Assembly (NCBI GenBank): GCA_937127445.1
Contig: CAKZLY010000021.1
Span: 15,886-79,885, forward strand
Reading direction: 5' to 3'
Source of the DNA: an uncultured Ignavibacteria bacterium
Lineage (GTDB): Bacteria > Bacteroidota > Ignavibacteria > Kapaibacteriales > UBA2268
Length of the DNA: 64,000 bases
Notes under the pieces: generated by a model
What the model was told of the DNA's origin: nothing
The model's input: the letters and a program-made list of their open reading frames with translations, nothing else
The model's database searches: none
In this document: in pieces, positions 2 to 60,429 of the stretch
How the letters are laid out: every line of letters starts with the position of its first letter
How positions within the stretch are numbered: the first letter of the stretch is position 1
Program-made: the position numbers and the translations under genes

Positions 2-475
2 TTCATTCCTGAACGGCACATTCATTTCATTGAGCAAAACGGCTTCAGTTTAGCACATTTTTTCGAGTCCGCAAACAAATTCGAAAGTTTTTTAAGTAAT
101 TTAATATTAAATGATACATCGGACGAAATTTTTGAACAGGTGAAAAACGAAATTCAACAAAGTTTTTCGCATCTGACTTCTATTCTAAGCGAAACCGACA
201 TTTCTCTCATTAGAACTTTGGAGAGCTACTCCCACAAATCATCTGAGTTCGTTGACAACTTACATAAGAAGTATATTTCCGCTCTCAAAAAGAAAAATTC
301 CGATTACATAGGAAAGTTTAGAAAAATTCGAAGTATTATTCTGCCAAACGAACGTTTGCAAGAAAGGCAAATTTCACCAATAAATTTCATAAATATTTAT
401 GGATTTGAAAATTTTTCTAAAATTTTAAATGAAATAGCCGATAATTACGTTAAAGGATTTATAATTTATTCATAA
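2..475 (+). CDS. Hypothetical protein, 5'-truncated at window edge. The frame is open from nt 2; ORF track starts at GTG 140.
   Basis: No stop codon in frame from position 2 to 475, so it continues upstream of the window. No recognisable motifs. Confidence 0.35.
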   Translation, partial: FIPERHIHFIEQNGFSLAHFFESANKFESFLSNLILNDTSDEIFEQVKNEIQQSFSHLTSILSETDISLIRTLESYSHKSSEFVDNLHKKYISALKKKNSDYIGKFRKIRSIILPNERLQERQISPINFINIYGFENFSKILNEIADNYVKGFIIYS

Positions 476-3430: not shown

Positions 3431-3688
3431 CTATTCTTGTTTATCCAACTCATTCAAAATACGTTGAGCGGTTTCCCTCAGAACTTCCGGAGAATTATAG
3501 TAACCCGAAGAAATACGTGAAAAAATACGAGAGAGCTTTTGAGCTTCACTTGAAATAGATAATGTATCGCCTCCCAATGTAGCGGACGTTTTTCCCGATG
3601 AAGTTTTTGATTTGTCCTTCTTATCAGAAACCCGCTCGTTATCTTTAGGTCCCGACACTCCCTGCGGTTTTATTGAACTGATATCCAT
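3431..3688 (-). CDS. flgM: Anti-sigma-28 factor FlgM
   Basis: Small (85 aa), disordered Ser/Lys-rich N-terminus, and the conserved C-terminal helix region ...YNSPEVLRETAQRIL. Sits among flagellar late genes. Confidence 0.55.
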   Translation of the reverse strand: MDISSIKPQGVSGPKDNERVSDKKDKSKTSSGKTSATLGGDTLSISSEAQKLSRIFSRISSGYYNSPEVLRETAQRILNELDKQE

Positions 3689-3700
3689 ATCACACCTTGA

Positions 3701-4048
3701 TTATTTTGAATAAATTAATACCGCTTTTTGTTTATTCAGTTGCTTTAATTTTTCTCCTGTATCCTTAGTCTTCTTTCGCAACAATTCTAAATTAACAGAA
3801 TCCATTTTAACAATCAAATTGATTTTTTCATTCCATTCATCTTGTTGTTTAGCAACAAATTCCTTGCCAATATCTGTTTCGAGCAAAGATTTCAGATAAA
3901 GGATGTTTTTCTCTCTTTCTTCGTAAAGATAAGAAATTTTCTCGAGATCTTCGAGTTCGAAATTGCCATTATCCAGTGATTCGAAAATACTTCTAGTATT
4001 TTCGAGAACAAGTTCGATGTTTTTCAGTATTTCATTATACTTTTGCAT
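3701..4048 (-). CDS. Flagellar export chaperone-like protein (FliT/FlgN-like?), hypothetical
   Basis: 115 aa, helical, acidic. Positioned between flaG and flgM on the same strand. No diagnostic motif. Confidence 0.25.
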   Translation of the reverse strand: MQKYNEILKNIELVLENTRSIFESLDNGNFELEDLEKISYLYEEREKNILYLKSLLETDIGKEFVAKQQDEWNEKINLIVKMDSVNLELLRKKTKDTGEKLKQLNKQKAVLIYSK

Positions 4049-6472: not shown

Positions 6473-7450
6473 TTACCTAAACAATTGCAAGAATTGTTGT
6501 GGGTTTTGGTTCGCTTGGGCAAGCGAAACAAGCGATGCTTGCTGCAAGAACTGAGACTTAATTAGCTCCATTTGTTCTGTTGCAACATCTGCATCTTCAA
6601 TACGTGATATTGCAGCTTTGTAATTTGTAATTTGCGATTTAAGCACATTTTCCTGTGAATTGATACGAACCTCAATTCCGCCGAGGTACGATGCGACTTT
6701 GTTAATATTATCAATAGCCATAGCAAGCGATGAAATTGTTCGAGTAATAGCAGAAGTAGCCCCTACGTTATTAAATATACCAAGGTTAGATGCTGAAACA
6801 GAGTTTAGGTCTTCAAGATTCAGTCCTGCAACTCCAGCAAAGTTTGTTGCAGCACCAGTTGTAGTGCCACGGACAGCAGTTGCTTCGCTTGTGGCATTCA
6901 AATCGAAGATACCATTAACATTAAAATCAGGATTGCTTGTAGTTAAGTCAATTCTAATTTTCATTAAGTTGTTGTTTGCGTAGTAACCAGTAACCCACTC
7001 ACCTGTAAAGTTACCTTGAAGTAGTTGCTTGCCGCCGAACACAGTTGAGTCTGTTATAAACTGAATTTGCTGAGCAAGGCGGTATGCACCTTTTGCGAGA
7101 GCAACTTTTTCGTCAGTTCCCAAAGCTCCTGATGATGCTGTTGCAGCGGCATCTTTGATTTGGGTAACAAGGGTACTAATCTGGTCAAGAGCATCTTGAG
7201 CTATTGATGTAACGTTTTTCGCATCGCCTGCTGAATTGAGTGCAGCTTTCAATGCACCATTGCGAGCTTGCAATGCACGTGATGTAATGTAACCAGAAAC
7301 GTCGTCAGCGGCAGAGTTAATTCTCTTGCCTGTCGATAAACGTAGTTGGCGCAAAGCAATATTATTGCTGGACGCCGTTAAAGAGTTGTAAGCATTTTCC
7401 GCGGGAATATTCGTCCGTATTCTTGAATCACCGCTAATTGCTGTTGGCAT
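6473..7450 (-). CDS. fliC: Flagellin (copy 1)
   Basis: Flagellin N- and C-terminal helical domains: LRLSTGKRINSAADDVSGY near the N-terminus and ...QASLVSLAQANQNPQQFLQLFR at the C-terminus. Has its own sigma-28 promoter. Confidence 0.85.
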   Translation of the reverse strand: MPTAISGDSRIRTNIPAENAYNSLTASSNNIALRQLRLSTGKRINSAADDVSGYITSRALQARNGALKAALNSAGDAKNVTSIAQDALDQISTLVTQIKDAAATASSGALGTDEKVALAKGAYRLAQQIQFITDSTVFGGKQLLQGNFTGEWVTGYYANNNLMKIRIDLTTSNPDFNVNGIFDLNATSEATAVRGTTTGAATNFAGVAGLNLEDLNSVSASNLGIFNNVGATSAITRTISSLAMAIDNINKVASYLGGIEVRINSQENVLKSQITNYKAAISRIEDADVATEQMELIKSQFLQQASLVSLAQANQNPQQFLQLFR

Positions 7451-7522
7451 AAGCCCCTCCCAAAGTAAAGTATTATTTTGGTGCCTCCTCCACCAAAAAT
7501 TTACATCCTAATCTTATTTATA

Positions 7523-7549
7523 TTATCGGCAATTATAACAAAAACTTTA
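7523..7549 (-). promoter_or_regulatory. Sigma-28 (FliA) promoter for flagellin copy 1
   Basis: Minus strand reads TAAA-N15-GCCGATAA, a perfect match to the sigma-28 consensus, about 75 nt upstream of the start codon. Confidence 0.7.
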
Positions 7550-7585
7550 ATAAAAAAGGACGGAAATTTTTCCGTCCCGAAAAAT
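7550..7585 (-). terminator. Rho-independent terminator of flagellin copy 2
   Basis: Minus strand: GGGACGG-loop-CCGTCC followed by TTTTTTATT. Confidence 0.65.
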
Positions 7586-7625
7586 TATTTTTCTTAATTT
7601 TCTATCCAGCTAATTCAAAATAATT

Positions 7626-8612
7626 TTATCTGAATAGCTGCAAGAACTGTTGTGGATTTTGGTTGGCCTGGCTTAATGATACCAAAGAAGCTTGCTGCAA
7701 GAATTGTGACTTAATGAGTTCCATTTGTTCTGTTGCAACATCTGCATCTTCGATACGCGAAATAGCTGCTTTGTAGTTTGTGATTTGAGATTTCAACATT
7801 GCTTCCTGCGAGTTGATACGCACCTCAATACCACCAAGATATGATGCAACTTTGTTAATGTTGTCAATTGCCATTGCAAGTGATTGCAAGGTTCTAACAA
7901 CATTGGACTTACCAGTCGAATCATTTAAGTAACCGAAATAGCCCAAATCTGAGGAACTGATATTGTTGAACTCTTCCAAATTTAAGCCTGTAACACCTGC
8001 AAAGTTATTCGATGCGCCAGATACTGAACCACGAACGGCAGTTGCTTCGCTTGTAGCATTCAAGTCGAACAATCCATTGACGTTAAAGTCCCTGTTGTTC
8101 ACAGTGAGGTCAATGGAAATTTTCATCAAATCGTTGTTTGCATAGTAACCAGTAACCCACTCACCTGTAAAGTTACCTTGAAGTAGTTGCTTGCCGCCGA
8201 ACACAGTTGAGTCTGTTATAAACTGAATTTGCTGAGCAAGGCGGTATGCGCCTTTTGCGAGAGCAACTTTTTCGTCGGTGCCCAAAGCTCCTGATGATGC
8301 AGTTGCAGTAGCGTCCTTAATTTGAGCCATTAATGAGTAAATCTGGTCAAGAGCATCCTGCGCAATAGATGTTACGTTCTTTGCATCTCCGGCAGAGTTG
8401 AGAGCAGCTTTCAAGGCACCATTGCGAGCTTGCAATGCACGTGAAGTGATATAGCCCGATACATCATCAGCTGCTGAGTTAATGCGTTTGCCTGTGGAAA
8501 GGCGCAGCTGGCGTAGAGCTATGTTACTGCTTGATGCTGATAATGCATTATAGGCATTTTCTGCCGGGATGTTGGTACGAATGCGGCTATCTCCGCTAAT
8601 TGCTGATGGCAT
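7626..8612 (-). CDS. fliC: Flagellin (copy 2, tandem paralog)
   Basis: Same conserved termini as copy 1 with a divergent central domain. Has its own sigma-28 promoter. Confidence 0.85.
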   Translation of the reverse strand: MPSAISGDSRIRTNIPAENAYNALSASSSNIALRQLRLSTGKRINSAADDVSGYITSRALQARNGALKAALNSAGDAKNVTSIAQDALDQIYSLMAQIKDATATASSGALGTDEKVALAKGAYRLAQQIQFITDSTVFGGKQLLQGNFTGEWVTGYYANNDLMKISIDLTVNNRDFNVNGLFDLNATSEATAVRGSVSGASNNFAGVTGLNLEEFNNISSSDLGYFGYLNDSTGKSNVVRTLQSLAMAIDNINKVASYLGGIEVRINSQEAMLKSQITNYKAAISRIEDADVATEQMELIKSQFLQQASLVSLSQANQNPQQFLQLFR

Positions 8613-8693: not shown

Positions 8694-8720
8694 TTTTCGG
8701 CATTTTTCTGAAAAACTTTA
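8694..8720 (-). promoter_or_regulatory. Sigma-28 (FliA) promoter for flagellin copy 2
   Basis: Minus strand reads TAAA-N15-GCCGAAAA (one mismatch to GCCGATAA), about 80 nt upstream of the start. Confidence 0.6.
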
Positions 8721-8799: not shown

Positions 8800-9867
8800 T
8801 TAAAAATTCATTATTTTTTTTACTGCATCGAATATCTTTTCAGGTAGAAGGTGTTCTAAACAGAAGTACTCATCGTTTACACATTTCGGGCTAAAAAAGC
8901 ATTTGCACTCTTTATCTGGCTCAACTATTATGCCTCGACCATAAAGTTCAAATTCGTTTTTATTGAATATATTATTTATTAGCACAACTTTTTTTCGCAG
9001 TCCAATTGCGATATGCAGCCCCATTGTTACAGCAGTTACCACCAAATCGCATTGATTAACAAGCGAAATGAACGTGTTTAAGTCAAAGAAACCAAAATAC
9101 TGTGCTCCGCTCTTTTGCGATATTATCGTGTTCTGCTCGTGCTCTTGCTCCCCACCTAATAGAATTACCTTGTAACCCTCATCTTGCAGATGTTTAGCAA
9201 GTTCTATCCAATATTCTTGTTTCCATAGTCGTGAAACCCAGCGAGCGCCACATCCGGTATTCAATCCGATTACACCTTTCCCTCGATCTGAGATATCCCA
9301 CTGCTTATCAGTTCTAACTTCCAACTCGTATTCTTCGCCGGAAAATTCATAGCCGCATATTTCGAAAATTTCTTGAAGATAATTTTTTGTGTTTGCTTTG
9401 TTGACATCGTCGAAAAGCCCTGTTAAATATTTGTGCATAGCACGTTGGTTTGCGGGCATTGGCTTGCCTTCGACAAGTGTGAAGCCATCGATATAATCTG
9501 CATTCAGTTGCGACGCCAACGCACAAGCGTGATAGTCTTTGTCAAGATTGATTACTTTGAAAAAATGCACGCTGCGCAAACTTATTACAGATTCAAGATT
9601 AAATAGCAACACTTTATCGACTGAGGACGGAATAATTTCAGGCGAGTTTGTTACCCACCAAAGCATACATTTTGGGAACTCCTGTTTTATGCGTTTGATA
9701 AGAGGTGTTGTTCGTATTACATCTCCAATAGCACCAAGCTTTATTATTAATATATTTTCTTTCGATGGTGAATATTCGGGACAATTTTGGCAATGGTAGC
9801 CATTTTTTTTATGCGGACGGCAGGGAATATCGCCGCGAAAATACCTGCAATCTTCTTTGAACAGCAT
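8800..9867 (-). CDS. GT9-family glycosyltransferase (heptosyltransferase-like) with Cys-rich N- and C-terminal extensions
   Basis: GT9 motif LIIKLGAIGDVIRTTPLIKRIK. N-terminus has CxxxxxxxxC...CxxC; C-terminus has CKC...PKC...FC. Confidence 0.7.
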   Translation of the reverse strand: MLFKEDCRYFRGDIPCRPHKKNGYHCQNCPEYSPSKENILIIKLGAIGDVIRTTPLIKRIKQEFPKCMLWWVTNSPEIIPSSVDKVLLFNLESVISLRSVHFFKVINLDKDYHACALASQLNADYIDGFTLVEGKPMPANQRAMHKYLTGLFDDVNKANTKNYLQEIFEICGYEFSGEEYELEVRTDKQWDISDRGKGVIGLNTGCGARWVSRLWKQEYWIELAKHLQDEGYKVILLGGEQEHEQNTIISQKSGAQYFGFFDLNTFISLVNQCDLVVTAVTMGLHIAIGLRKKVVLINNIFNKNEFELYGRGIIVEPDKECKCFFSPKCVNDEYFCLEHLLPEKIFDAVKKIMNF

Positions 9868-9875
9868 TTTCTCAC

Positions 9876-10610
9876 CTATAATGAGTATTTCAACAAAAGC
9901 ATAAAATTAAAAACAGGAACTATCTGTTCTTTCTTTTCAAAATATCGAAGCGGGGTTAGCAATTCTCCGCGATTATTGTCTCTTGGAAAGAGGTTCAATA
10001 CCCCAACGCCAATAGAGGCATCAATTTTTAATTTAGATTTAAGTTGCCCTTCTATTCCCAATCGGGCAAAGCTTCCAATACGAAACGCCCCGTATTTTCT
10101 ATTTACTACATAGGAGGTATCACGATTTACGTCGTTCCGCCAGTGGTCGCGGTAGGTCAGTTCTGCTCGAGTTATTATATTACCACGCAAATCTGCACCG
10201 ACATAAATATCGGTTTTTGCCCAATCTAAATGAGTAAGTACATAATAAAACCCTGAGCCAATCGAAAGATTGTGCACCTCGTGCCAATAATAAATCGTAA
10301 GCAAGCCACTCACAGGATAGCGTTCGCCTGATGAATATATAGTAAAATCAATATCAACAGGAACACGTATTTTTTCGCCCTTGTACATAGTCAGTCGCGC
10401 AGCAAATCCTGATTGGACAGCATCAAAACTACCACCATAAACAAATCTCTTTGCCGTATCATTTTGTATTATCGGCAACTGGGCTGGATTGTCACCTAAT
10501 ATTGAAAATGTTGATATTCCTGCTCCAATAGAATATGCATCGAATATCTCGGCTTTTACTGCTGTAGCAAAGAGAAATATCCAGAGTGCAATTGAAAGTA
10601 ATTTTTTCAT
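9876..10610 (-). CDS. Secreted outer-membrane beta-barrel-like protein, hypothetical
   Basis: Signal peptide MKKLLSIALWIFLFATAVKA, alternating amphipathic beta-strands, aromatic C-terminal residues. Confidence 0.45.
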   Translation of the reverse strand: MKKLLSIALWIFLFATAVKAEIFDAYSIGAGISTFSILGDNPAQLPIIQNDTAKRFVYGGSFDAVQSGFAARLTMYKGEKIRVPVDIDFTIYSSGERYPVSGLLTIYYWHEVHNLSIGSGFYYVLTHLDWAKTDIYVGADLRGNIITRAELTYRDHWRNDVNRDTSYVVNRKYGAFRIGSFARLGIEGQLKSKLKIDASIGVGVLNLFPRDNNRGELLTPLRYFEKKEQIVPVFNFMLLLKYSL

Positions 10611-10668
10611 ATTATTGTTTGTTTGTGTAAAAATATCATTCATAATAACAAAAAAGAGTGCTCTTTTG

Positions 10669-11727
10669 CTACAATTTTTCTTTTATTGAATAATTTTTTG
10701 TCTTTTCGAAGTTCTGCTTTACTATCATCTCCCCTACCAGCCCGATTGAAAAGAACTGTACACCAACAATAATCAAAGCGATGCCAAAATTCGCAAGCGG
10801 GCGATTGCTTAAATACGTACTACCAAGAAACCATTCGACAGTCAGGTATGCATTAATTGCAAATCCTATCAACGTGAAAATCGTCCCGAATAGTCCAAAG
10901 AAGTGCATTGGTCGCTTCATAAACCGTGTGATGAACACAAAGGTAAGCAAATCCAGAAATCCATTAATAAATCGGGACAATCCAAATTTGGATTTGCCAT
11001 ACCGCCGAGCGTGATGAACTACAGGAATTTCTGCCACACGGAAACCTTCCCAGTAGGCAAGTGCAGGCAAATAGCGATGCATCTCTCCATATACTTGCAG
11101 TGTATCGGTTACAGACTTCCGATATAGCTTAAGCCCGCAGTTAAAATCGTGCAATTTTATACCGCTTACCATTGATGTTACAAAATTGAATAGTTTTGAG
11201 GGGATTGTCTTCGATATTGGGTCCTTGCGGTTTTGCTTCCAGCCAGTAACAAGGTCGTAGCCTTCTTTCATTTTCTTTGCTAAATTTTTAATTTCGGCGG
11301 GGTCGTCCTGCAAGTCTGCATCCATTGTTGCAACAAATTTTCCGCGAGCAGCTTCGAAACCAACAGCAAGAGCGGCACTTTTTCCATAGTTGCGTCGGAA
11401 ACTAATATAGCGAAATCGTTTATTTCGACGATGTATCTGCTTGATGTAGTCAAGTGAACCATCTGTAGAGCCATCATCTACAAAAATAACTTCATAGCGT
11501 CCGTGTGTGAGTTCTTGGAGTTCTTTTTCTAATTGCAATGCAAGCTCGGGAATTGATTCTTCTTCATTATATAGTGGAATTACAACAGAAATCAACAGTT
11601 CGCTTTTACTGTTTTTTTGTTGGCTCTGTTGGTTTTGATTAGAACGCTTTACGTTTTGCCCTTCTTTTTGGTTGATTTTTTCTTTTTTTTGGCTTTCTTT
11701 TCTATTGTTGCTATTTTTTTTGTCCAT
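10669..11727 (-). CDS. GT2 polyprenol-phosphate glycosyltransferase (GtrB/ArnC/DPM1-like) with a K/N/Q-rich N-terminal tail
   Basis: VVIPLYNEEESI ... FVDDGSTDGS ... DADLQDDP GT2 motifs, plus two C-terminal TM helices. Confidence 0.8.
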   Translation of the reverse strand: MDKKNSNNRKESQKKEKINQKEGQNVKRSNQNQQSQQKNSKSELLISVVIPLYNEEESIPELALQLEKELQELTHGRYEVIFVDDGSTDGSLDYIKQIHRRNKRFRYISFRRNYGKSAALAVGFEAARGKFVATMDADLQDDPAEIKNLAKKMKEGYDLVTGWKQNRKDPISKTIPSKLFNFVTSMVSGIKLHDFNCGLKLYRKSVTDTLQVYGEMHRYLPALAYWEGFRVAEIPVVHHARRYGKSKFGLSRFINGFLDLLTFVFITRFMKRPMHFFGLFGTIFTLIGFAINAYLTVEWFLGSTYLSNRPLANFGIALIIVGVQFFSIGLVGEMIVKQNFEKTKNYSIKEKL

Positions 11728-11730
11728 AAT

Positions 11731-12507
11731 CTATCTGTTAATTATTAATTTTTTAAAATAAATATTGTTGTTGATGTCTAAAATTTTAATAAAATAAATA
11801 CCATTCTTTAAATTTACAAGATTAATTTTTTCGCTTGTAGGTAAATTGGTATTAAACATTAGTTCAGATAATTCATTATAAATTTCAATCTTACTGACTT
11901 TTGTGCTATTACTTACGGAAATCCAGCTATTAGATGGATTTGGAAAAACTTCAAAAATTTCTTTGTTTTCTGGAATAGAAGTAGGCACTTTTGTATATAC
12001 TACATCAATATAAATTGGCACTTTCGGTAGGTTTTCATTGTTAATTACAACAGAAGTAGTCTTTGTCATATCTGCCGAAAAGAGAAGTCCCAGTTCATCA
12101 TAAATTCTTGCAGATTTAATGTAATTTGGCAACTTATTCCACGAAATAGTTGCAACAGAAGGGACTCGTTTGTTTAAATCAATTTTGTAACGGTGGTGGA
12201 ATTCATTTTCGTCGGCGGGGACACTTCTAAAATCCTTGTAGCTGTATAGGCCTTCTATATTTATGGTATCTAAATTGAAAACAGCAAATACATCAAATGC
12301 TGGTGGTGGAAATGGCGGTATTTCTATTTCGCCAAGATGAGTATCTAATCCGTCAGTAGCCGACGAAACCGCCCCAAACACAAGAAGCGTATCGATAGCG
12401 AATGTATTATTAATTGTAAGCCGAACTTTCACATCAAATTCGTCGGCTGTTGCTTCTGAATACATAAGTATCGTAATTATTGCAATAGCAAACAGTTTTA
12501 TTTTCAT
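11731..12507 (-). CDS. Secreted protein with T9SS C-terminal sorting domain
   Basis: Signal peptide. C-terminus ...KNGIYFIKILDINNNIYFKKLIINR matches the Por/T9SS CTD pattern. Confidence 0.6.
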   Translation of the reverse strand: MKIKLFAIAIITILMYSEATADEFDVKVRLTINNTFAIDTLLVFGAVSSATDGLDTHLGEIEIPPFPPPAFDVFAVFNLDTINIEGLYSYKDFRSVPADENEFHHRYKIDLNKRVPSVATISWNKLPNYIKSARIYDELGLLFSADMTKTTSVVINNENLPKVPIYIDVVYTKVPTSIPENKEIFEVFPNPSNSWISVSNSTKVSKIEIYNELSELMFNTNLPTSEKINLVNLKNGIYFIKILDINNNIYFKKLIINR

Positions 12508-12530
12508 ATCTACCTTCCTTATTATAAACT

Positions 12531-12570
12531 AAAAACAAATGGGCATCATTTGTTGTAGATGCCCATTTGT
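12531..12570 (-). terminator. Rho-independent terminator downstream of the 1064-aa T9SS cargo gene
   Basis: ACAAATGGGCATC-loop-GATGCCCATTTGT followed by a T-tract on the minus strand. Confidence 0.65.
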
Positions 12571-12592
12571 CTTGGAAAAGATAATTAGAAAA

Positions 12593-15500
12593 TTATCTTA
12601 CAATATTGATTTTAGCTACTTCTGTGCGGTCGCCAGCAACGATTTTAACGATATAATTACCAGTTGCAAAGCGAGAAGCATCAAAAGTATATGAATGATT
12701 GCCAGCATTCAAGCTGCTGCTGAGCAATGTAGCTACTTCATTTCCAAGTGCATCGAACAACGAAATTGTAACATTTGCATTCATCGGAATTGCAAAGTTA
12801 ACGGTTGCAGTCGATGAAACTGGGTTTGGATTAACGCTCAATGTAGCGTTCAAAGTAGCATCAGTTTTTACAAGCTTGAATACATTGTAAGTAGCACGGT
12901 TGATAGTTATTGAGTTGTTGAAGCGATTGATTTCGCCAAATACTTCGCCAGTAACTACATCAACCACTTTGTATGCGCCTTTTACGTTGTCAATTGATAC
13001 AGTAAGAGGATATTTAACGCCTTGAACGCGAACAACGCCCTCGTTCTCAGTTGTCAGGTAGCTATTATCAGCAAAGCGAACATCGAACATTTCAGCAAGT
13101 GGTGCAGGTGGAAGTTCGAATGTATTGCCGCTGATAGCTAAATCATTGGATAAGTATAATGTTCCATTGTTGTTGTCGCTGTCTTTGATGCTCAATACTG
13201 ATGAGTTTGCAAGGACAGACTTCTTAACAACAGAACCATCGATTGAGTTAAGCTTGAAGCCAAAGCGTAAGTTCTGTGGAACATTTACTTTCAGATAACC
13301 AGTTGTATTAACTTTAATCCAGTATCCAAGACCAGGAAGAATTTCGGATACTTCTTTATATCCTCTGTTAGTTTCGTAAGCCCAAACACCATATTGGCGA
13401 GTGAAGGTTACATCAGGTGCATCTTGACCAGCACTTAAAGCGTCAAATTTAATGTGGTCAATACCCAGTGGAACGGAAACCGAACCAATTGTATTCCAGC
13501 CAGTGTATAGGCGGATACCATTGAATGGAGCAACATTTTTATCAAGGTCGTAGATAAATGTACCTGGGAATTTAGTATCAACGATTGAATCGTATTTTAC
13601 AAAGTAGCCAATACCAGGTTGCAAAATACCATCTGGTGGAGTTTGATATTGGTTCTGAGTAAACAATATTGGGATATTGATTGCATTCTTATAGAAGTTC
13701 GAATAATATGGATTAACAGGACGAACTGGCATTGAGAGCAAGTTCCAACCTTTCTTAATAATAGGTTCGCCAGCTTTGTTCACGTAATCAACAACAGTAG
13801 GCAATGTATACTCAATCACAAATTCTCTAACTCTTGGATCAAGAATTGTAAATGAGAATTTACCATCGCCCAATGGAGTTGCTTCGCGCATATTAACTGC
13901 TGGGAAGTATAGTCCATTTTGTCTGTCGTGAATATAAAGTTGTGAGCCAGGATAGAAATCAGTTGTATCCCAAGTTAAAATTACTGGAGTTCCATTGTTA
14001 GCTTCAAACTTGCAATAGAAGATATGTGATTTTGCAGTATAATTAAAATCACGAATATCGCGTGAGTTGGAACGACGTTGAGCTTCATTTGCTGCAAAGT
14101 CCCAGAAACCATTTGGATATTTAGCTGCCAATACTGGGTTTACAGGGAACCAACGAGCATCAAATATTGAATTGCCTTGTGGGTCTTGACCTAATGGCCA
14201 TTCGTATGGGCATTCGCCATAAAGCGTATCAATATCGTCCGATGCGCGTGTGCCAGTACCGAAGACCAACAATTTGCTTTCACCCTTGCTGTTTGATACT
14301 GTAAGTTTGATACCTGGAACGATATTCGTTTTAACAATTGGTTCAACAGGAGTTTTGAAGAGAATGAAGTTTACTTCAAGTTTAGTTGGGTTCTCATCAA
14401 TGTATGGAGTAGTGAATGTAATATGACCAGTGTAGATACCTTCTTTTTCATTATCAACTGGCGAAATAGTAAGTTTAGAAGGGTCACAATCAACTAACAG
14501 ATAAACTTCAGGATCAGGGCCAATTGGCTGACCTTTTGGATCTTTAAAGTCTTGCGAACCAAGGATTCCTACGTCGATATAGTTAATAAAGCCTTTTCTT
14601 GTAAGTTGTGGTATAGGATTTTTGGAAATTGATCCGACAGTAACAGTTTGGAAGTTCAACCAAGGTTTGTCTGATTCGACAACGATATCCTGAATACGTG
14701 TCTTTGAAAGAGCATCAGGAATTCTAACGCGTACAATGCGTTGAGCGCGACGTGGTTGAATATCTGCATTGTCAACCGTAAGTGGAGTATATATTTTCCA
14801 ATAGCCTTCGCTAATCTTCATAATTGAGTCGCTGGAAGTTGGGCTTGTGCTTTGAACAACACCAGGACCTGGCATAAAGCGGAATTCAGGAATTTTTTCG
14901 AAAATAGTAACCCAAATTGAGCCAGGGATATATCTTTCAGGATATGTTTGCCAATCAATAACTGCAGCAGGCAAGTTATCATTGCGCATACCTGTAAGAC
15001 CTGTAATAGGCAATTGATTGGTGGTTGTTCCTTCAGCGTTTGTGAATGCAAGTGATTGAGGAGTACAAGGGAAGTTATTTACAGTAAATACGTATTCACG
15101 AATATTGATGCCGTTATATTTAATAATGTCTGCATTGATGTAGATTGGAGTATTAACTGGCAAGTTTGGATTTTCTTTGTCTACCAATACTTCAAATACT
15201 ACATAGAGCAATACATTGTATTTACGGTTAGCAACAGTAGTTGCTGGGAGTGGTGTTGTCGAAGCTCCAACGATTTTGAATTTTCTACCAGCAGAAGGAA
15301 TTGCGTCTGTTCCTTTTCTTGTTGGGAAAAGATTTTTAGTATAGTTAGTATCACGCAAATCGAATGTTTGGAAATTGAAGTTTTTAGCAAGAGGTTCTAC
15401 GTAAGGAAGGAACCTATTGTCGTTTCTTGCCTGAGCTTCTTGAGCAGTAACAGGATGATGAGTTTGAATACCAACTGCTTTGAAAACATTACCATTATAC

Positions 15501-15787
15501 GAAAGAGAAAACTCAAAACTTTTGATAGGAGCAAAAGTTTGGTCTGTTACTTCTATAAATACTGGCAAAAGGAATTCACGCTTCGATTTCGATGAAGGCG
15601 GAATCCAAATTCTGCCATCGGGATACCAAGCTGTATTGTAACCGCTTAAATCGCCGGTTAAATTCAGCTGTGGTATAATTACATCGCATTGAGCCTGTGC
15701 TTCAACATATGTTGTAAGTCCAAAGACTACAACTAATATGCCGAGTAGCATTCGACTTACCCTGCGAGTTAATAAGAGTTTATTCAT
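12593..15787 (-). CDS. Large secreted T9SS cargo protein (1064 aa), function unknown
   Basis: Signal peptide with GGGGGT ribosome-binding site. C-terminal CTD ...GNYIVKIVAGDRTEVAKINIVR. Confidence 0.6.
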   Translation of the reverse strand: MNKLLLTRRVSRMLLGILVVVFGLTTYVEAQAQCDVIIPQLNLTGDLSGYNTAWYPDGRIWIPPSSKSKREFLLPVFIEVTDQTFAPIKSFEFSLSYNGNVFKAVGIQTHHPVTAQEAQARNDNRFLPYVEPLAKNFNFQTFDLRDTNYTKNLFPTRKGTDAIPSAGRKFKIVGASTTPLPATTVANRKYNVLLYVVFEVLVDKENPNLPVNTPIYINADIIKYNGINIREYVFTVNNFPCTPQSLAFTNAEGTTTNQLPITGLTGMRNDNLPAAVIDWQTYPERYIPGSIWVTIFEKIPEFRFMPGPGVVQSTSPTSSDSIMKISEGYWKIYTPLTVDNADIQPRRAQRIVRVRIPDALSKTRIQDIVVESDKPWLNFQTVTVGSISKNPIPQLTRKGFINYIDVGILGSQDFKDPKGQPIGPDPEVYLLVDCDPSKLTISPVDNEKEGIYTGHITFTTPYIDENPTKLEVNFILFKTPVEPIVKTNIVPGIKLTVSNSKGESKLLVFGTGTRASDDIDTLYGECPYEWPLGQDPQGNSIFDARWFPVNPVLAAKYPNGFWDFAANEAQRRSNSRDIRDFNYTAKSHIFYCKFEANNGTPVILTWDTTDFYPGSQLYIHDRQNGLYFPAVNMREATPLGDGKFSFTILDPRVREFVIEYTLPTVVDYVNKAGEPIIKKGWNLLSMPVRPVNPYYSNFYKNAINIPILFTQNQYQTPPDGILQPGIGYFVKYDSIVDTKFPGTFIYDLDKNVAPFNGIRLYTGWNTIGSVSVPLGIDHIKFDALSAGQDAPDVTFTRQYGVWAYETNRGYKEVSEILPGLGYWIKVNTTGYLKVNVPQNLRFGFKLNSIDGSVVKKSVLANSSVLSIKDSDNNNGTLYLSNDLAISGNTFELPPAPLAEMFDVRFADNSYLTTENEGVVRVQGVKYPLTVSIDNVKGAYKVVDVVTGEVFGEINRFNNSITINRATYNVFKLVKTDATLNATLSVNPNPVSSTATVNFAIPMNANVTISLFDALGNEVATLLSSSLNAGNHSYTFDASRFATGNYIVKIVAGDRTEVAKINIVR

Positions 15788-15807
15788 GATACCCCCAAAT
15801 TAATAAA

Positions 15808-16980
15808 TTAATATTTTATTAGATTTTTTATAATTTTCTCTGCTTTACTATCTATTTCTACAATATAGATACCACGTGCAAATTTTTCTGCATTAATTCG
15901 TATGTGATTTTCGTATGTATTTTCTAAAAATATCATTTTACCATTAATATCGTATATTCTAACAATTTTTTCATTGTCGTTGTCTGTTTTTATTGTTATG
16001 CAATCACAAGTTCGGTTGTAATAAGCAATTGCTTCTGCACTTTCTTCAACTACTGTTGTTGTATCTGGGATATCTGATACAAGTTCCAGGTTGTTGTTTT
16101 CATATTGAGTAACACAGTCGCAATCGCCAACTATGGCATTATCAACTGAAATCCAGCCACTTGTCCTGCCAATATCGCTATTATTCATTATGTCAATAAT
16201 CAATGTGTCTTTTAGAACTTGATTATTAACTGATATAGCCATCTTTACCAAGCCATTTTCTTGTGAAATACTATTTATCACAATATTATCGTTGCTTGGC
16301 TCAATACGAGAGATTTCAAATGAACTGCCCATTTGCATTAAATCCAGCTTAACATTGCTAACCTTTTTCCCGTTGCTATTCAATACGAGCTTCGTTTGCT
16401 TTGTACCTTTATCATTGAAACTCAGCTGGTTATCACTAAATAGCACTGTGAATTTTCTATCAGGTTTATCTGCGATAACAGCTTCGACCATTGCGTTCTG
16501 TGGTTCAGCGATATCTTTTTTGAATTCCTCGGTAAATGCAATGTACGAAAGACTTACTTCCGAGGTATCGAAGCAATCGCCGAGCCAAATGCCTTGAATA
16601 GCAAGCAGTGGCAAGTCGCCTTCCACAGGTGCAAGGAACGGATTTAGATGCCCTGCAGTCCCATAAATAGCGCTATCGGCTGCCGAAATTGTAAATTGCT
16701 TTATTTCAAAGAACTCTGACAATGTACCAAAGGTACTGACAAAATTGAATTTAATTTTCGAAGGGTCATACTTTATTTCGAAATTATAACCGAATAAAGA
16801 ATCTGCCTTCGTAATCTTACCAATTGTCAAAAGAACTAAAACTTCGTGTTCGTCAATATTTTCGCATACATCTATTTTTTTAACGCTTTTAAGCGTTGGC
16901 ACTATCGTGTTATTTTGGGCTACAAGGCTGCTGAACAAAGTAACTATCAGCAGCCCGATGCCGCAAATTCTTTTCAGCAT
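15808..16980 (-). CDS. Secreted T9SS cargo protein (390 aa)
   Basis: Signal peptide. CTD ...RGIYIVEIDSKAEKIIKNLIKY. Confidence 0.55.
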   Translation of the reverse strand: MLKRICGIGLLIVTLFSSLVAQNNTIVPTLKSVKKIDVCENIDEHEVLVLLTIGKITKADSLFGYNFEIKYDPSKIKFNFVSTFGTLSEFFEIKQFTISAADSAIYGTAGHLNPFLAPVEGDLPLLAIQGIWLGDCFDTSEVSLSYIAFTEEFKKDIAEPQNAMVEAVIADKPDRKFTVLFSDNQLSFNDKGTKQTKLVLNSNGKKVSNVKLDLMQMGSSFEISRIEPSNDNIVINSISQENGLVKMAISVNNQVLKDTLIIDIMNNSDIGRTSGWISVDNAIVGDCDCVTQYENNNLELVSDIPDTTTVVEESAEAIAYYNRTCDCITIKTDNDNEKIVRIYDINGKMIFLENTYENHIRINAEKFARGIYIVEIDSKAEKIIKNLIKY

Positions 16981-18917
16981 TATCTCGAAACAACAACTTT
17001 GTTCGAAACAGTGTTTCCATTACCAGTCAAACGGTAAATATATACTCCGTTCCCAACTTTCTTGCCAGCTTCGTCTGTCAAATTCCAGTTGAATGAATAT
17101 TGTCCAGCTTTGAGCGTACCTTTGTGCAATACTTTAACCAAGTTACCTTGTGCATCAAAGATTGCCAATTCGTAGTTGCTGGAATTATCAATGCTAACAG
17201 CAATATTAGTAGTTGAATTTGCAGGATTTGGATATGCAGCCATTATCAATTCATCGCCTGCAATACCTTCTGCAAGTTTAATTTTTACGCTTTCAATATC
17301 ACGTTCGTTAAATCTAATATTGCTTGCATTAATTTCATTATTATTTGTTGCAACAGTAACATAAGCGAATGGTTTATTAGCAGCAAATTCTCCAACACCG
17401 CTAATTACAACATTATTTTTACCATTCATTGCAATAACATTTTCATCATTTGTGTTAACTGCTACAACTTCACCGTCTAATTGAAATTTAGCACCAATTG
17501 GACCAGCAAAATTAGCATCCACATAAACTGGGATATTGTAAGTGTTTTCATTTACTCTTGTCCATTCGCCGAAACGAATTGATGCAATTTCATTATTAAC
17601 TTTGCCGTATTGAGGAACTGTGTCCCAAATCCAAGGCAAATATGGGATTCTGCCTGAGATGTAAGCAATAATCAATGCTGCATCATATTCATCTGCTTGG
17701 AACATAATTTGTTTGAGTGAGCTGATGTCTGTAATTCTATGCATACTATCAGCATAGTTCATTGTTCTCCAAGGAATAGATTTTCTATTACCTAATGTAT
17801 CATAGTAGAAGCGACCATTATGATTGACATCAGCGTGATATGCTGCACGGCGGCGAATTGAATCGAGAGGAACGTTTGTAGCAATTGCTCTCATCACAAG
17901 ACGAGCATCGTTGATTGTTACAAAACGATTTTGTGGTTTATTGTAGTGTGGTTCACCGGCTGCTTTCGAAAAATCAACATCACCGTCTCCCCACCATTCA
18001 GCTATGTTGAAGCGTTTTTTAGCACGGAGGAAAATTGATAGCGCATTGTTTCTTGTTGGAGTCCATTCAGTTGTTTTAACTGTATCAGTAACAACTTTTA
18101 CTGGATCGTATGGTAGATATCCGCCATTAAACAATGCGTTCATAAAGTCAGCTTTCTGCAAAAAGCCTTTCCCTTCGCCTTTAATACCAACAGCACAGTT
18201 GTTAGTAAACAATCTTTCGTCGAACCCTGGCAGACCTGTTTGCCAGTAAGGGATTTGTTCAGTACGTTTACCAACTGTACCATAGCGGAATTCTATATCG
18301 CCTTGTGCAGAATATGGGTCAGTTGACTTATAAAGAATCAATTGGAAGTCAGCAACACTTGCTTTGAAATCTGGGAAATAGTTAATATTTAAATTTTTCC
18401 ATTCGATTGTAAATTTATCTGGTTCGCTCTTGTAAGAAATTGTAGTAGGAGCATAACCTTTGAACTTCACGCTGTCTGGACGGAAATAGTGGTCTCCCCA
18501 GAAAGGAGCAATAACGTTAACTGGATATGATGGATCATCATAGAACATAGCATTAGGATTCTTTGTCCCAGCGATTAATGTTGGAGGACCTTCCAATGTC
18601 CCGTTGATAGTAACTTTACCGAAAGTAACAAAACCATTAACGTTAATCCAAACTTTTGTGAAAACTTCGCCATTAAACTCGAATGGGAATGGAAGTTGTA
18701 CTTCTGCATATCCATCATCGAGATCTAATGTATTATTAGGTGGGACCACGAAATTTTGATAAGGAATTGCAGTGCCACCTTGGAGGAATTCAAAAGGACG
18801 ATTCACCAATTGAACGCCTTCGAACTCACCAAAAACTTGCGCTTTCAATTGCTTACCCGGGAATACAGTCATCATCAGAACCAAAATCCCGGTAGCAAGG
18901 AAAAATAATCTTCTCAT
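16980..18917 (-). CDS. Secreted T9SS cargo protein (about 645 aa)
   Basis: Start at MRRLFF with a GGAG ribosome-binding site, signal peptide. CTD ...GVYIYRLTGNGNTVSNKVVVSR. Confidence 0.55.
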   Translation of the reverse strand: MRRLFFLATGILVLMMTVFPGKQLKAQVFGEFEGVQLVNRPFEFLQGGTAIPYQNFVVPPNNTLDLDDGYAEVQLPFPFEFNGEVFTKVWINVNGFVTFGKVTINGTLEGPPTLIAGTKNPNAMFYDDPSYPVNVIAPFWGDHYFRPDSVKFKGYAPTTISYKSEPDKFTIEWKNLNINYFPDFKASVADFQLILYKSTDPYSAQGDIEFRYGTVGKRTEQIPYWQTGLPGFDERLFTNNCAVGIKGEGKGFLQKADFMNALFNGGYLPYDPVKVVTDTVKTTEWTPTRNNALSIFLRAKKRFNIAEWWGDGDVDFSKAAGEPHYNKPQNRFVTINDARLVMRAIATNVPLDSIRRRAAYHADVNHNGRFYYDTLGNRKSIPWRTMNYADSMHRITDISSLKQIMFQADEYDAALIIAYISGRIPYLPWIWDTVPQYGKVNNEIASIRFGEWTRVNENTYNIPVYVDANFAGPIGAKFQLDGEVVAVNTNDENVIAMNGKNNVVISGVGEFAANKPFAYVTVATNNNEINASNIRFNERDIESVKIKLAEGIAGDELIMAAYPNPANSTTNIAVSIDNSSNYELAIFDAQGNLVKVLHKGTLKAGQYSFNWNLTDEAGKKVGNGVYIYRLTGNGNTVSNKVVVSR

Positions 18918-18964
18918 TTTAACTCCATTATTTATTATGTATATCTTTTTCATAAGTTAATTTC

Positions 18965-18998
18965 ATATGGCTTCCCCGATTTCTCGGGGAAAGCCATA
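18965..18998 (-). terminator. Hairpin downstream of the giant gene (putative terminator)
   Basis: ATGGCTTCCCCGA / TCGGGGAAAGCCAT inverted repeat immediately after the stop codon. Weak T-tract. Confidence 0.35.
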
Positions 18999-19008
18999 CG
19001 ACAACATA

Positions 19009-27030: not shown

Positions 27031-27130
27031 GTTACCTCCAAAATGTGAAAATTTTGTTATAAAATCTATGTTGCTTAAAAAATCTATGTTCATTTTGCAT
27101 CATATAATATTAAATATACATAAATACGTT

Positions 27131-59688: not shown

Positions 59689-60429
59689 ATGACTGTCCCG
59701 CAAAAAATTTCAGAAAAGCACTTCAATAAATACTCGCCGTGGTACTTCTCGGGTTTTTCCGTTCTCATTATTATTATCTGGAATATTCCCGACGGCTTCT
59801 ATTACCTTTACCCGCTAACAATTCTGGCAACATATTTTCACGAGATGGGACACGGGCTTGCTGCGTTGTTGCTTGGTGGCAATTTTCATTATCTGCTGGT
59901 GCATCCCGACGGCTCGGGCGTGGCGGTTCATTCAGGTGTGCAATTTCTTGGCTCAATTGGACAAGCGACTGTCGCCATTGGCGGTCCGCTCGGTCCTACT
60001 TTCGTTGGTACGCTCTTCATTTATGCTTCTGCATCAGTCAAAGCAACTAAAAGGTTGCTTGTAATTGTAGGTGCGTTGATTATTATCACTGTTCTAATTT
60101 GGGTGCGTTCTGTATTTGGCGTGTTGTTTTTGATAGCGGTTGGTGGATTACTAATGTATATTGGAACAAAATCGTCGGATCGAACCAAGCAACTGGTGCT
60201 TCAATTGCTTGGGGTTTCCTCTATGCTTAGTTTATACCAAAACATTGGATATTTCTTTATTGATAAAGTTGAAATGGATGGGCAAATAATGTATTCCGAT
60301 ACGGGTTATTTGCAGAAATATTTATTTCTTCCATACTGGATGTGGGCAGTTATTATTTTGGGAATTTCGTTGTTTGCATTTTATAAAAGTTTTGCATATT
60401 TATATAAAAAAAATAAGGGACTACAATGA
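59689..60429 (+). CDS. M50-like membrane metallopeptidase family protein
   Basis: HEMGH (HExxH) within a TM helix. Multi-pass membrane protein. Confidence 0.5.
   Translation: MTVPQKISEKHFNKYSPWYFSGFSVLIIIIWNIPDGFYYLYPLTILATYFHEMGHGLAALLLGGNFHYLLVHPDGSGVAVHSGVQFLGSIGQATVAIGGPLGPTFVGTLFIYASASVKATKRLLVIVGALIIITVLIWVRSVFGVLFLIAVGGLLMYIGTKSSDRTKQLVLQLLGVSSMLSLYQNIGYFFIDKVEMDGQIMYSDTGYLQKYLFLPYWMWAVIILGISLFAFYKSFAYLYKKNKGLQ

What the first reader, a model, noticed from the sequence alone, without database searches (positions are those of the whole stretch)
8800..11727. Glycosylation-type module directly downstream of the flagellins: Cys-rich GT9, an outer-membrane beta-barrel protein, and a GT2 polyprenol-phosphate glycosyltransferase with a poly-K/N/Q tail
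The GT9 heptosyltransferase-like enzyme has four Cys at each terminus (CRYFRGDIPC...CQNC and CKCFFSPKC...FC), suggesting a metal-binding clasp. I cannot tell from sequence alone whether this clasp is unusual for GT9 enzymes. Together with rmlCA at the other end of the locus, and the flippase/manC further on, this may be a flagellin or surface-glycan modification pathway. The GT2 enzyme's ~45-aa lysine/asparagine/glutamine-rich N-terminus is also unusual.
Basis: inference. Interest (0 to 1): 0.5.

Follow-up and report, generated by a model that had tools for sequence, protein, structure and literature searches.

The report
Envelope-sugar operon beside flagellin genes
The three genes are the tail end of a widely conserved cell-envelope sugar-attachment operon that only by recent chance sits next to the flagellin genes; its one unusual part is a sugar-transferring enzyme from a large, unstudied branch that carries two four-cysteine (probably metal-binding) motifs and an altered sugar pocket.

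Summary
Window 8800-11727 (minus strand) encodes a GT9-fold enzyme with four Cys at each end, an 8-stranded outer-membrane barrel, and an ArnC/GtrB-type polyprenyl-phosphate GT2 with a 45-aa basic low-complexity N-tail.

The flagellin link does not hold. In 80 related genome loci, GT2 lies just upstream of GT9 in 71 and the barrel lies between them in 34. T9SS cargo genes precede them in about 20. Flagellin is adjacent in one. Adjacency persists at 84-92% GT9 identity and is gone at 64%, where the cargo-GT2-barrel-GT9 block is intact. Each flagellin has its own sigma-28-type promoter.

The Cys motifs are invariant in 81/81 orthologs. They mark a large uncharacterised GT9 clade (488 clusters at E<=1e-30) found in several phyla inside polysaccharide clusters. 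Spacing variants and domain insertions suggest two separate Cys4 sites rather than one clasp. TibC's iron finger is the only precedent.

The window's subclade has replaced the heptose-binding Asp (WaaC D261) with an invariant Val, so its donor is probably not ADP-heptose.

The GT2 tail is a conserved trait of its orthogroup.

Verdict: an ordinary envelope-glycan module with one moderately interesting enzyme variant.

The parts
8800..9867 (-). GT9-fold (GT-B) cytoplasmic glycosyltransferase of a Cys4+Cys4 clade. The N-terminal 36-aa extension carries C7-x8-C16-x9-C26-x2-C29 (plus H19). The C-terminal motif is C321-x-C323-x5-C329-x6-C336. The catalytic Asp D49 is kept. The donor pocket is changed: R213, V280, T281, M282.
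9876..10643 (-). Small (8-stranded type) outer-membrane beta-barrel with signal peptide. The real start is probably M12 (about 10610). Conserved polar residues are K183, R188, N217, the R225-G-E-L-L-T loop and E239. Function unknown.
10669..11727 (-). ArnC/GtrB-type polyprenyl-phosphate glycosyltransferase (GT2). The GT-A domain spans residues 46-250, followed by two C-terminal membrane helices. A 45-aa basic low-complexity N-terminal tail is encoded at 11593-11727.
11731..18953 (-). Four tightly packed T9SS type-A cargo genes (258, 1064, 390 and 657 aa) immediately upstream of GT2, with gaps of -1 to 85 bp. They are conserved together with GT2-barrel-GT9 in about 20 related genomes and probably form one operon with them.
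8694..8720 (-). Sigma-28-type promoter motif (TAAA-N15-GCCGAAAA) in the 188-bp gap between GT9 and flaA. It marks flaA as its own transcription unit. This is a boundary of the module, not part of it.

Best explanation
The three genes are the 3' end of a conserved cell-envelope glycoconjugate operon. They are not a flagellin-modification island.

Shown:
- The GT2 is an ArnC/GtrB-type membrane enzyme.
- The GT9 is a soluble GT-B enzyme. It keeps the catalytic Asp and the nucleotide-binding Glu, His and a basic residue.
- The middle gene encodes a small outer-membrane barrel.
- GT2 and GT9 travel together across dozens of genomes.

Inferred mechanism:
- The GT2 loads a sugar onto undecaprenyl phosphate on the cytoplasmic face of the membrane.
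- The lipid-linked sugar is flipped. A GT-C enzyme then transfers it to a periplasmic or outer-surface acceptor. YfhO- or PMT_2-like GT-C enzymes are encoded in the same cluster in other lineages. In this genome the partner would lie outside the window.
- The GT9 works on the cytoplasmic face, adding a sugar to a lipid-linked glycan such as an LPS core, oligosaccharide or polysaccharide intermediate.
- Its sister clade keeps the canonical K...D-T motif and sits beside GmhA/HldE and Wzy/Wzx genes, so those enzymes are probably heptosyltransferases. The window's subclade has replaced the heptose-binding Asp with Val, so it probably uses a different donor or binds it differently.
- The two Cys4 motifs most likely hold structural metal ions (Zn or Fe). 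One stabilises the N-terminal extension. The other stabilises the loop before the C-terminal helix, as the iron finger does in TibC.
- In the Kapaibacterium-type lineage the product may decorate or anchor the co-encoded T9SS surface proteins.
For: Synteny:
- In 80 genome loci, GT2 is upstream of GT9 in 71, the barrel lies between them in 34, and T9SS cargo lies upstream in about 20. Flagellin is adjacent in 1.
- At 64% GT9 identity the five cargo genes, GT2, barrel and GT9 are kept, and the next gene is FBPase.
- In other lineages GT9 is followed by GT4 (32 loci), a YfhO-like GT-C (18 loci), PMT_2 GT-C enzymes and methyltransferases.
- Sister-clade members lie in polysaccharide clusters. L081 has GmhA-like SIS, HldE-like PfkB+CTP_transf, GT2, GT4 genes and Wzy_C. 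L082 has an orthologous tailed GT2 (54% identity), GT4, an epimerase and Wzx. L083 and L085 are similar.

Enzymes:
- The GT2 matches ArnC at E 4e-51 and GtrB at E 6e-36, including the membrane helices.
- The GT9 fold and active-site mapping are as follows: D49=WaaC D13, R213=K192, E242=E222, V280=D261, H285=H266. Residue roles come from bioRxiv 10.1101/2021.06.16.448588.

Transcription:
- Sigma-28-type promoters lie upstream of both flagellins, where 0.06 matches are expected by chance.
- Gaps from the 657-aa cargo gene through GT9 are -1 to 85 bp.
Against: - No acceptor, donor or product has been identified.
- No GT-C enzyme, flippase, ADP-heptose gene or lipid A/Kdo gene lies in the operon here.
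- The Wzx-like gene and manC are about 47 kb away.
- No terminator was found between GT9 and flaA, so read-through into flaA cannot be excluded.
- Gene order shows co-inheritance, not function.
- Metal binding is inferred from Cys invariance only. The AlphaFold model is least confident in exactly those segments (pLDDT 57-75).
Confidence: 0.62

Rival explanations
1. Flagellin glycosylation island. The GT9, perhaps with the GT2, modifies FlaA/FlaB using sugars supplied by rmlCA or manC.
For: - The module is physically next to flaA in this genome and in relatives at 84-92% identity.
- No other candidate flagellin glycosyltransferase lies in the flagellar block.
- A sigma-28-type motif sits just upstream of rmlC. 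This suggests rmlCA-fliW-csrA are co-expressed with late flagellar genes.
- The one GT9 relative with a Cys4 metal finger, TibC, is a cytoplasmic protein O-glycosyltransferase (PMC4358343).
Against: - Adjacency occurs in 1 of 80 loci and is lost at 64% identity, while the upstream operon is kept.
- The flagellins have their own promoters, and no such motif lies upstream of the GT genes.
- Flagellin is glycosylated in the cytoplasm before flagellar type III export (PMC4065374). A polyprenyl-phosphate GT2 and an outer-membrane barrel have no place in that route.
- The rmlCA flank is replaced by pnp/rpsO in the 84% relative.
- The GT9 clade occurs in polysaccharide clusters in other phyla.
Confidence: 0.07
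2. Dedicated glycosylation, or glycolipid anchoring, of the co-encoded T9SS cargo proteins. Either the GT9 glycosylates them in the cytoplasm before Sec export, as AAH/TibC do for autotransporters. Or GT2 and GT9 build the surface glycolipid to which the T9SS sortase attaches type-A cargo.
For: - Four to five type-A CTD cargo genes are tightly packed with GT2-barrel-GT9 and are conserved together in about 20 genomes, down to 57-64% identity.
- The giant cargo protein has PMP and beta-helix repeats, like autotransporter passengers.
- TibC and AAH are co-operonic with their substrates and carry a Cys4 finger.
Against: - Most GT2-GT9 pairs (about 50 of 71) have no T9SS cargo nearby. They sit instead with GT4, GT-C and methyltransferase genes.
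- The BAHT equivalog model scores 15 bits against a cut-off of 200, and the BAHT N-terminal beta-barrel domain is absent.
- No data exist on cargo glycosylation in this group.
Confidence: 0.2
3. Lipid A/LPS remodelling unit of the Arn/PagL type. The GT2 makes an undecaprenyl-phosphate sugar for lipid A decoration, and the barrel is a PagL/PagP-like outer-membrane lipid A enzyme.
For: - ArnC is the best structural and sequence match for the GT2.
- GT9 enzymes classically act on Kdo-lipid A.
Against: - The GT2 scores 197 bits against the 529-bit cut-off of the ArnC equivalog model.
- No ArnA, ArnB, ArnD or ArnT genes are present in the window.
- The barrel family has no conserved His or Ser. Its invariant residues are K183, R188, N217 and E239, so a PagL-type triad is absent.
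- The barrel is missing from more than half of the GT2-GT9 loci.
Confidence: 0.1

Closest known systems
LPS heptosyltransferases WaaC/WaaF (GT9; PDB 2H1F, 1PSW) and the Veillonella GT9 3TOV
   Same: - The G-D-x-x-x-T-x-P motif with the catalytic Asp is kept (D49 = WaaC D13).
- Also kept are the ribose-binding Glu (E242), His (H285), and a basic residue at the pyrophosphate (R213 in place of K192).
   Different: - About 16-18% identity.
- Scores are far below the equivalog cut-offs (54/185, 53/135, 34/170 bits).
- The heptose-binding Asp of the D-T/S-G motif is an invariant Val (V280-T-M).
- It carries a 36-aa N-terminal Cys4 extension and a C-terminal Cys4 motif that the solved enzymes lack.
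- No ADP-heptose or Kdo/lipid A genes lie nearby.
TibC/AAH bacterial autotransporter heptosyltransferases (BAHT; PDB 4RAP)
   Same: - A Cys4 metal site in the C-lobe near the C-terminus. In TibC it binds Fe through Cys339, 342, 358 and 370, and it is structural rather than catalytic.
- The enzyme is encoded beside secreted beta-helix-type proteins.
   Different: - There is no N-terminal beta-barrel domain and no beta-hairpin thumb.
- The Cys spacing differs, and here there is a second, N-terminal Cys4 motif.
- The BAHT model TIGR04414 scores 15 bits against a cut-off of 200.
- Nothing shows a protein acceptor or a dodecamer.
ArnC / GtrB / PgfS / CsbB polyprenyl-phosphate glycosyltransferases (GT2) with their GT-C partners (ArnT, GtrC, YfhO)
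   Same: - A GT-A domain with the D-A-D motif, plus two C-terminal membrane helices.
- Full-length match to the ArnC and GtrB structures.
- In related genomes a YfhO- or PMT_2-type GT-C lies in the same cluster, as in the CsbB/YfhO and GtrB/GtrC systems.
   Different: - It falls below every equivalog cut-off, so the sugar is unknown.
- It has a basic, disordered N-terminal tail of 8-255 aa that ArnC and GtrB lack.
- It is consistently paired with a GT9 enzyme, which is not part of the known three-component systems.
- No GT-C or GtrA-type flippase is present in this window.
Flagellin glycosylation islands (Maf/PseE, FlmG, FgtA/Fgt1, GmaR)
   Same: Glycosyltransferase genes lie immediately next to flagellin genes, with sugar-nucleotide genes (rmlCA) near flagellar genes.
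   Different: - The known systems use soluble cytoplasmic transferases of other families.
- Here the linkage to flagellin is not conserved.
- Two of the three proteins are membrane or outer-membrane proteins.

Membership tests
CAZy GT9 / Pfam PF01075 (fold-level membership) | Significant profile match and a GT-B two-Rossmann fold | tested here: met
   [not shown]
CAZy GT9 / Pfam PF01075 (fold-level membership) | N-domain catalytic Asp (WaaC Asp13) in the G-D-x-x-x-T-x-P motif | tested here: met
   D49 aligns to WaaC D13 and is Asp in 81/81 orthologs. Some more distant relatives have Glu.
ADP-heptose:LPS heptosyltransferase I/II/III (WaaC/WaaF/WaaQ equivalogs) | Score above the NCBIfam equivalog cut-offs | tested here: not met
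   TIGR02193 scores 54.4 against 185.3. TIGR02195 scores 52.7 against 134.6. TIGR02201 scores 34.5 against 170.2.
ADP-heptose:LPS heptosyltransferase I/II/III (WaaC/WaaF/WaaQ equivalogs) | Heptose-binding Asp of the D-(T/S)-G motif (WaaC Asp261) | tested here: not met
   It aligns to V280-T281-M282. Val is present in 81/81 orthologs. The sister clade keeps D-T-(L/M). The role of Asp261 is taken from bioRxiv 10.1101/2021.06.16.448588.
ADP-heptose:LPS heptosyltransferase I/II/III (WaaC/WaaF/WaaQ equivalogs) | Genomic link to ADP-heptose synthesis (gmhA, hldE) or Kdo/lipid A genes | tested here: not met
   tblastn with GmhA and HldE from L081 found no hit in the window or in the +/-8 kb flanks of the 80 loci. 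The rest of the genome was not searchable.
BAHT protein heptosyltransferases (TibC/AAH) | Equivalog score, and the N-terminal beta-barrel domain plus beta-hairpin thumb | tested here: not met
   TIGR04414 scores 15.2 bits against a cut-off of 200. The N-terminal extension is only 36 aa and is mostly coil. TibC architecture is taken from PMC4358343.
BAHT protein heptosyltransferases (TibC/AAH) | Cys4 metal finger in the C-lobe | tested here: inconclusive
   A four-Cys motif is present before the C-terminal helix and is invariant, in three spacing variants across the clade. Its homology to the TibC finger and its metal content could not be tested.
Flagellin glycosylation island | Conserved genomic linkage of the transferase genes to flagellin genes | tested here: not met
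   Flagellin is adjacent in 1 of 80 loci. It is kept at 92% and 84% identity and lost at 64%.
Flagellin glycosylation island | Soluble cytoplasmic transferase acting before flagellar type III export | tested here: not met
   The GT2 has two membrane helices and is of the polyprenyl-phosphate type. The middle protein is an outer-membrane barrel. Only the GT9 is soluble. The cytoplasmic route is taken from PMC4065374.
Flagellin glycosylation island | Flagellin actually glycosylated | not testable with these tools
   This needs intact-mass analysis or glycoproteomics.
ArnC/GtrB-type polyprenyl-phosphate glycosyltransferase (GT2) | GT-A domain with a DxD motif plus C-terminal membrane helices, matching the solved members over their full length | tested here: met
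   PF00535 scores 124 bits. ArnC (9BHC) matches at E 4e-51 over residues 46-336. GtrB (5EKP) matches at E 1.5e-35. The D-A-D motif lies in 'TMDADLQDD'.
ArnC/GtrB-type polyprenyl-phosphate glycosyltransferase (GT2) | Equivalog of a member with known sugar specificity (ArnC, PgfS, AglJ) | tested here: not met
   NF007986 scores 196.6 against 529. NF047588 scores 180.1 against 500. TIGR04182 scores 90.1 against 325.
ArnC/GtrB-type polyprenyl-phosphate glycosyltransferase (GT2) | GT-C partner enzyme | tested here: inconclusive
   None is present in the window. YfhO-like and PMT_2-like GT-C genes lie downstream of GT9 in 18 or more related loci. The rest of this genome was not searched.
Small outer-membrane beta-barrels (OmpA-TM/OmpW/NspA type) | Signal peptide, 8-stranded barrel fold, C-terminal beta-signal | tested here: met
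   [not shown]
PagL lipid A deacylase | Conserved His-Ser-Glu catalytic triad | tested here: not met
   No His or Ser is conserved at 80% or more among the 37 homologs.

The most novel reading that the evidence does not exclude
The Cys4+Cys4 GT9 clade may be a new class of metal-finger glycosyltransferases. The window's Val-for-Asp subclade would have switched both donor and acceptor, becoming a cytoplasmic protein O-glycosyltransferase on the TibC/AAH principle. It would modify the co-encoded T9SS surface proteins, or in this lineage flagellin, before export. That would extend autotransporter-style cytoplasmic glycosylation to the Bacteroidota-Ignavibacteria-Chlorobi (FCB) group and to type IX secretion.
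Probability: 0.1. Interest if true: 0.75.

Novelty: new variant of a known kind. Interest (0 to 1): 0.3.

Why it matters
- It removes a tempting but wrong annotation. These genes are not a flagellin glycosylation island. It shows how synteny across relatives separates chance neighbours from real operons.
- It defines a large, uncharacterised GT9 clade. At least 488 clusters at 50% identity, in several phyla, carry two conserved Cys4 motifs. Until now a metal finger in this fold was known only from TibC/AAH.
- Within that clade it identifies a subclade whose sugar-binding Asp has become Val. Its donor is unknown, so the automatic label 'ADP-heptose:LPS heptosyltransferase' is probably wrong for thousands of Ignavibacteria and Kapaibacteria proteins.
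- It shows that the ArnC-like GT2 partner carries a conserved, disordered, basic N-terminal tail.
- In one lineage the pair is welded to a set of T9SS surface proteins. This is a concrete starting point for studying envelope glycans in a poorly known group.

Tried and rejected
- PagL-type enzyme for the barrel. Rejected, because no His or Ser is conserved.
- A single N/C 'clasp' cluster. Judged less likely. The C-terminal motif keeps four Cys in three different spacings. Some relatives have a roughly 100-aa insert between the N motif and the catalytic domain. A few begin at beta-1 and carry only the C motif.
- The GT2 tail as a start-codon artefact. Rejected. The frame is open and similarly composed in 43 of 43 assessable orthologs. 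An independent gene call gives 352 aa. The ATG lies 3 nt after the upstream stop codon.
- Pfam scan of the isolated Cys segments and of the tail. Nothing was found.
- Sequence search of the 1064-aa and 657-aa T9SS proteins against solved structures. Only the CTD/FlgD-like Ig domain matched.
- Literature searches for Cys, zinc or iron-sulfur sites in GT9. Only the TibC paper turned up.
- Look-ups that returned nothing: P0121 and P0324 in the look-up of encoding contigs.
- The afdb50 fold library was unavailable.
- I could not read model coordinates, so Cys-Cys distances in the AlphaFold model were not measured.
Full report
**What is there.** Every gene between 3431 and 27093 lies on the minus strand. 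In the direction of transcription the order is as follows:
- a 2694-aa T9SS cargo protein;
- four further T9SS type-A cargo genes (657, 390, 1064 and 258 aa);
- GT2 (10669-11727);
- a 255-aa protein (9876-10643);
- GT9 (8800-9867);
- a 188-bp gap;
- flaA, flaB, fliS, fliD, flaG, and two small ORFs, one weakly FlgM-like.

Gaps from the 657-aa gene through GT9 run from -1 to 85 bp. The module is therefore upstream of the flagellins, not downstream. The window is contig DAISZF010000009.1 of assembly GCA_036824935.1. Independent gene calls there give the same three proteins.

**The three proteins.**
- GT2. It matches the ArnC and GtrB structures over their full length, including the two C-terminal membrane helices. 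It falls below all equivalog cut-offs, so its sugar is unknown.

**Is the module tied to flagellin?** No.
- I fetched 80 genome loci that encode close relatives of the GT9 and searched them with all window proteins. GT2 lies directly upstream of GT9 in 71. The barrel lies between them in 34. The T9SS cargo genes lie upstream in about 20. Flagellin is adjacent in only one, the 84%-identity relative.
- At 92% identity the whole arrangement is kept.
- At 84% the flagellar block is kept, but its far flank is pnp/rpsO rather than rmlCA-fliW-csrA.
- At 64% the five cargo genes, GT2, barrel and GT9 are intact, and the next gene is fructose-bisphosphatase.
- Both flagellins are preceded by exact TAAA-N15-GCCGAWAA motifs. 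Three matches occur in the window, against 0.06 expected by chance. The motifs are conserved in relatives. A terminator follows flaA.
- Flagellin glycosylation is cytoplasmic and precedes export (PMC4065374). A polyprenyl-phosphate GT2 and an outer-membrane barrel do not fit that route.

**What the GT2-GT9 pair travels with.**
- In lineages that lack the barrel, GT9 is followed by a GT4 (32 loci), a YfhO-like GT-C (18 loci), PMT_2-type GT-C proteins and methyltransferases. This is the usual make-up of a lipid-linked glycan pathway with a periplasmic transfer step.
- No GT-C gene is present in the window.
- The Wzx-like gene (58213-59685) and manC (60426-61532) are about 47 kb away, beyond ftsK, yidC, rlmN and other housekeeping genes.

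**The cysteines.**
- All eight Cys are invariant in 21 diverse homologs and in 81/81 orthologs.
- A profile search of 1.84 billion representatives found 488 clusters at E<=1e-30.
- Nearly all full-length members carry the N-terminal C-x8-C-x9-C-x2-C motif (295 sequences).
- They also carry a four-Cys C-terminal motif in one of three spacings: CxC-x5-C-x6-C as here, CxxC-x4-C-x5-C, or CxxC-x9-C-x4-C.
- Some members have a roughly 100-aa insert between the N motif and the catalytic domain. A few start at beta-1 and have only the C motif.
- This pattern fits two self-contained Cys4 sites better than one clasp shared between the termini.
- None of WaaC, WaaF or 3TOV has these cysteines.
- The only precedent I found is the Fe(Cys)4 'iron finger' of TibC. 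It is a structural insertion in the C-lobe that is needed for oligomer assembly (PMC4358343).
- The nature of the metal here is untested.

**The active site.** The profile alignment to WaaC, WaaF and 3TOV, read with published residue roles, gives this mapping:

| Window GT9 | WaaC | Role in WaaC | Status here |
|---|---|---|---|
| D49 | Asp13 | catalytic base | kept |
| E242 | Glu222 | binds ribose | kept |
| H285 | His266 | binds heptose | kept |
| R213 | Lys192 | binds pyrophosphate and heptose | Lys replaced by Arg |
| V280 | Asp261 | binds heptose | Asp replaced by Val, in 81/81 orthologs |

- The wider Cys-bearing clade keeps K...D-T-(L/M)-H. It occurs in Verrucomicrobiota, Nitrospirota, Thermodesulfobacteriota, Syntrophobacteraceae and Bacteroidota.
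- Its members lie in polysaccharide clusters. One cluster has GmhA- and HldE-like genes and Wzy. One has an orthologous tailed GT2, GT4, an epimerase and Wzx. Two others have Wzx, GT2, GT4 or radical-SAM genes.
- No GmhA or HldE homolog lies within the flanks of the 80 Val-type loci or in the window.
- The sister clade therefore looks like heptosyltransferases of surface glycans. The window's subclade has probably changed donor.

**The GT2 tail.**
- Orthologs almost always carry a hydrophilic N-terminal extension before the conserved (I/V)S(V/I)V(I/V)P motif.
- In 43 assessable orthologs the median length is 44 aa (range 8-255). The tails are rich in Q, R, P, E, S, K and N, and net positive in 36 of 43.
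- A Bacteroidota ortholog has a tail of about 175 aa.
- The tail is real and is a family trait. Composition shifts from K/N in the AT-rich window to R/P in some relatives. Its role is unknown.

**The barrel.** Across 37 homologs the invariant residues are K183, R188, G190, G196, N217, L228 and E239. No His or Ser is conserved, so a PagL-type hydrolase is excluded. Its function remains open.

**Conclusion.** The flagellin interpretation is not supported. The 'surface glycan' alternative is supported at the level of gene content and synteny. The most likely picture has two parts:
- a cytoplasmic-face GT9 step on a lipid-linked glycan;
- an undecaprenyl-phosphate sugar branch made by the GT2 and used by a GT-C enzyme encoded elsewhere.

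In this lineage the operon is fused to a conserved set of T9SS surface proteins. The moderately novel element is the two-Cys4, Val-for-Asp GT9 variant.

Noticed in passing
window 418-444 (+), just upstream of rmlC (479): A third exact sigma-28-type motif (TAAAATTTTAAATGAAATAGCCGATAA) lies inside the 3' end of the bshC-like gene, about 35 nt before the rmlC start. The rmlC-rmlA-fliW-csrA-response regulator string may therefore belong to the late flagellar regulon. The identical 27-mer is present in the 92% relative L087 (19413-19439). It lies in coding sequence, so its conservation alone is weak evidence.
   Followed up: partly
window 11731-27093 (-); also L002, L005, L007, L008, L012, L014, L025, L028, L034, L049, L054, L087-L089: A conserved set of T9SS type-A cargo genes (2694, 657, 390, 1064 and 258 aa) with no recognisable functional domain apart from BNR/PMP/Ig-like repeats in the giant protein. 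Order and size are kept at 25-44% identity in about 20 genomes, always followed by GT2-barrel-GT9. This may be an undescribed surface structure of the Kapaibacterium-type lineage.
   Followed up: partly
window 6473-8612 (-): Two tandem flagellin paralogs (325 and 328 aa) are almost identical in the N- and C-terminal helices and diverge only in the short central region (about residues 170-240). Each has its own sigma-28-type promoter (8694-8720 and 7523-7549). A hairpin terminator lies between them (7578-7557).
   Followed up: partly
P0174, P0218, P0246 (relatives found): In some members of the Cys-bearing GT9 clade the N-terminal Cys4 motif is followed by an extra domain of about 100 aa before the catalytic domain. 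P0141 instead has about 100 extra residues before the N-terminal Cys motif. P0279 has a C-terminal extension of about 190 aa. The N-terminal motif therefore behaves as a separate module.
   Followed up: no
window 9876-10643 (-): The first ATG gives a 255-aa product, but eight of nine homologs begin at or within a few residues of the position of M12 (MKK...). The true start is probably near 10610, which widens the GT2-barrel gap from 25 to about 58 bp.
   Followed up: partly
window 3431-4048 (-): Two small ORFs downstream of flaG have no Pfam hit. The 85-aa ORF matches FlgM weakly (NCBIfam E 3.5e-4, below cut-off). The 115-aa ORF has a faint FliT hit in a relative. They may be the anti-sigma-28 factor and a chaperone that complete the late flagellar block.
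   Followed up: partly
L002, L004, L025, L049 and others (record titles): Several loci with the same Kapaibacterium-type operon carry NCBI organism labels such as Chloroflexota, Hyphomicrobiales, Desulfobulbaceae or Chloroherpeton. Given the shared gene order and T9SS cargo, these look like mislabelled or mis-binned metagenome-assembled genomes.
   Followed up: no
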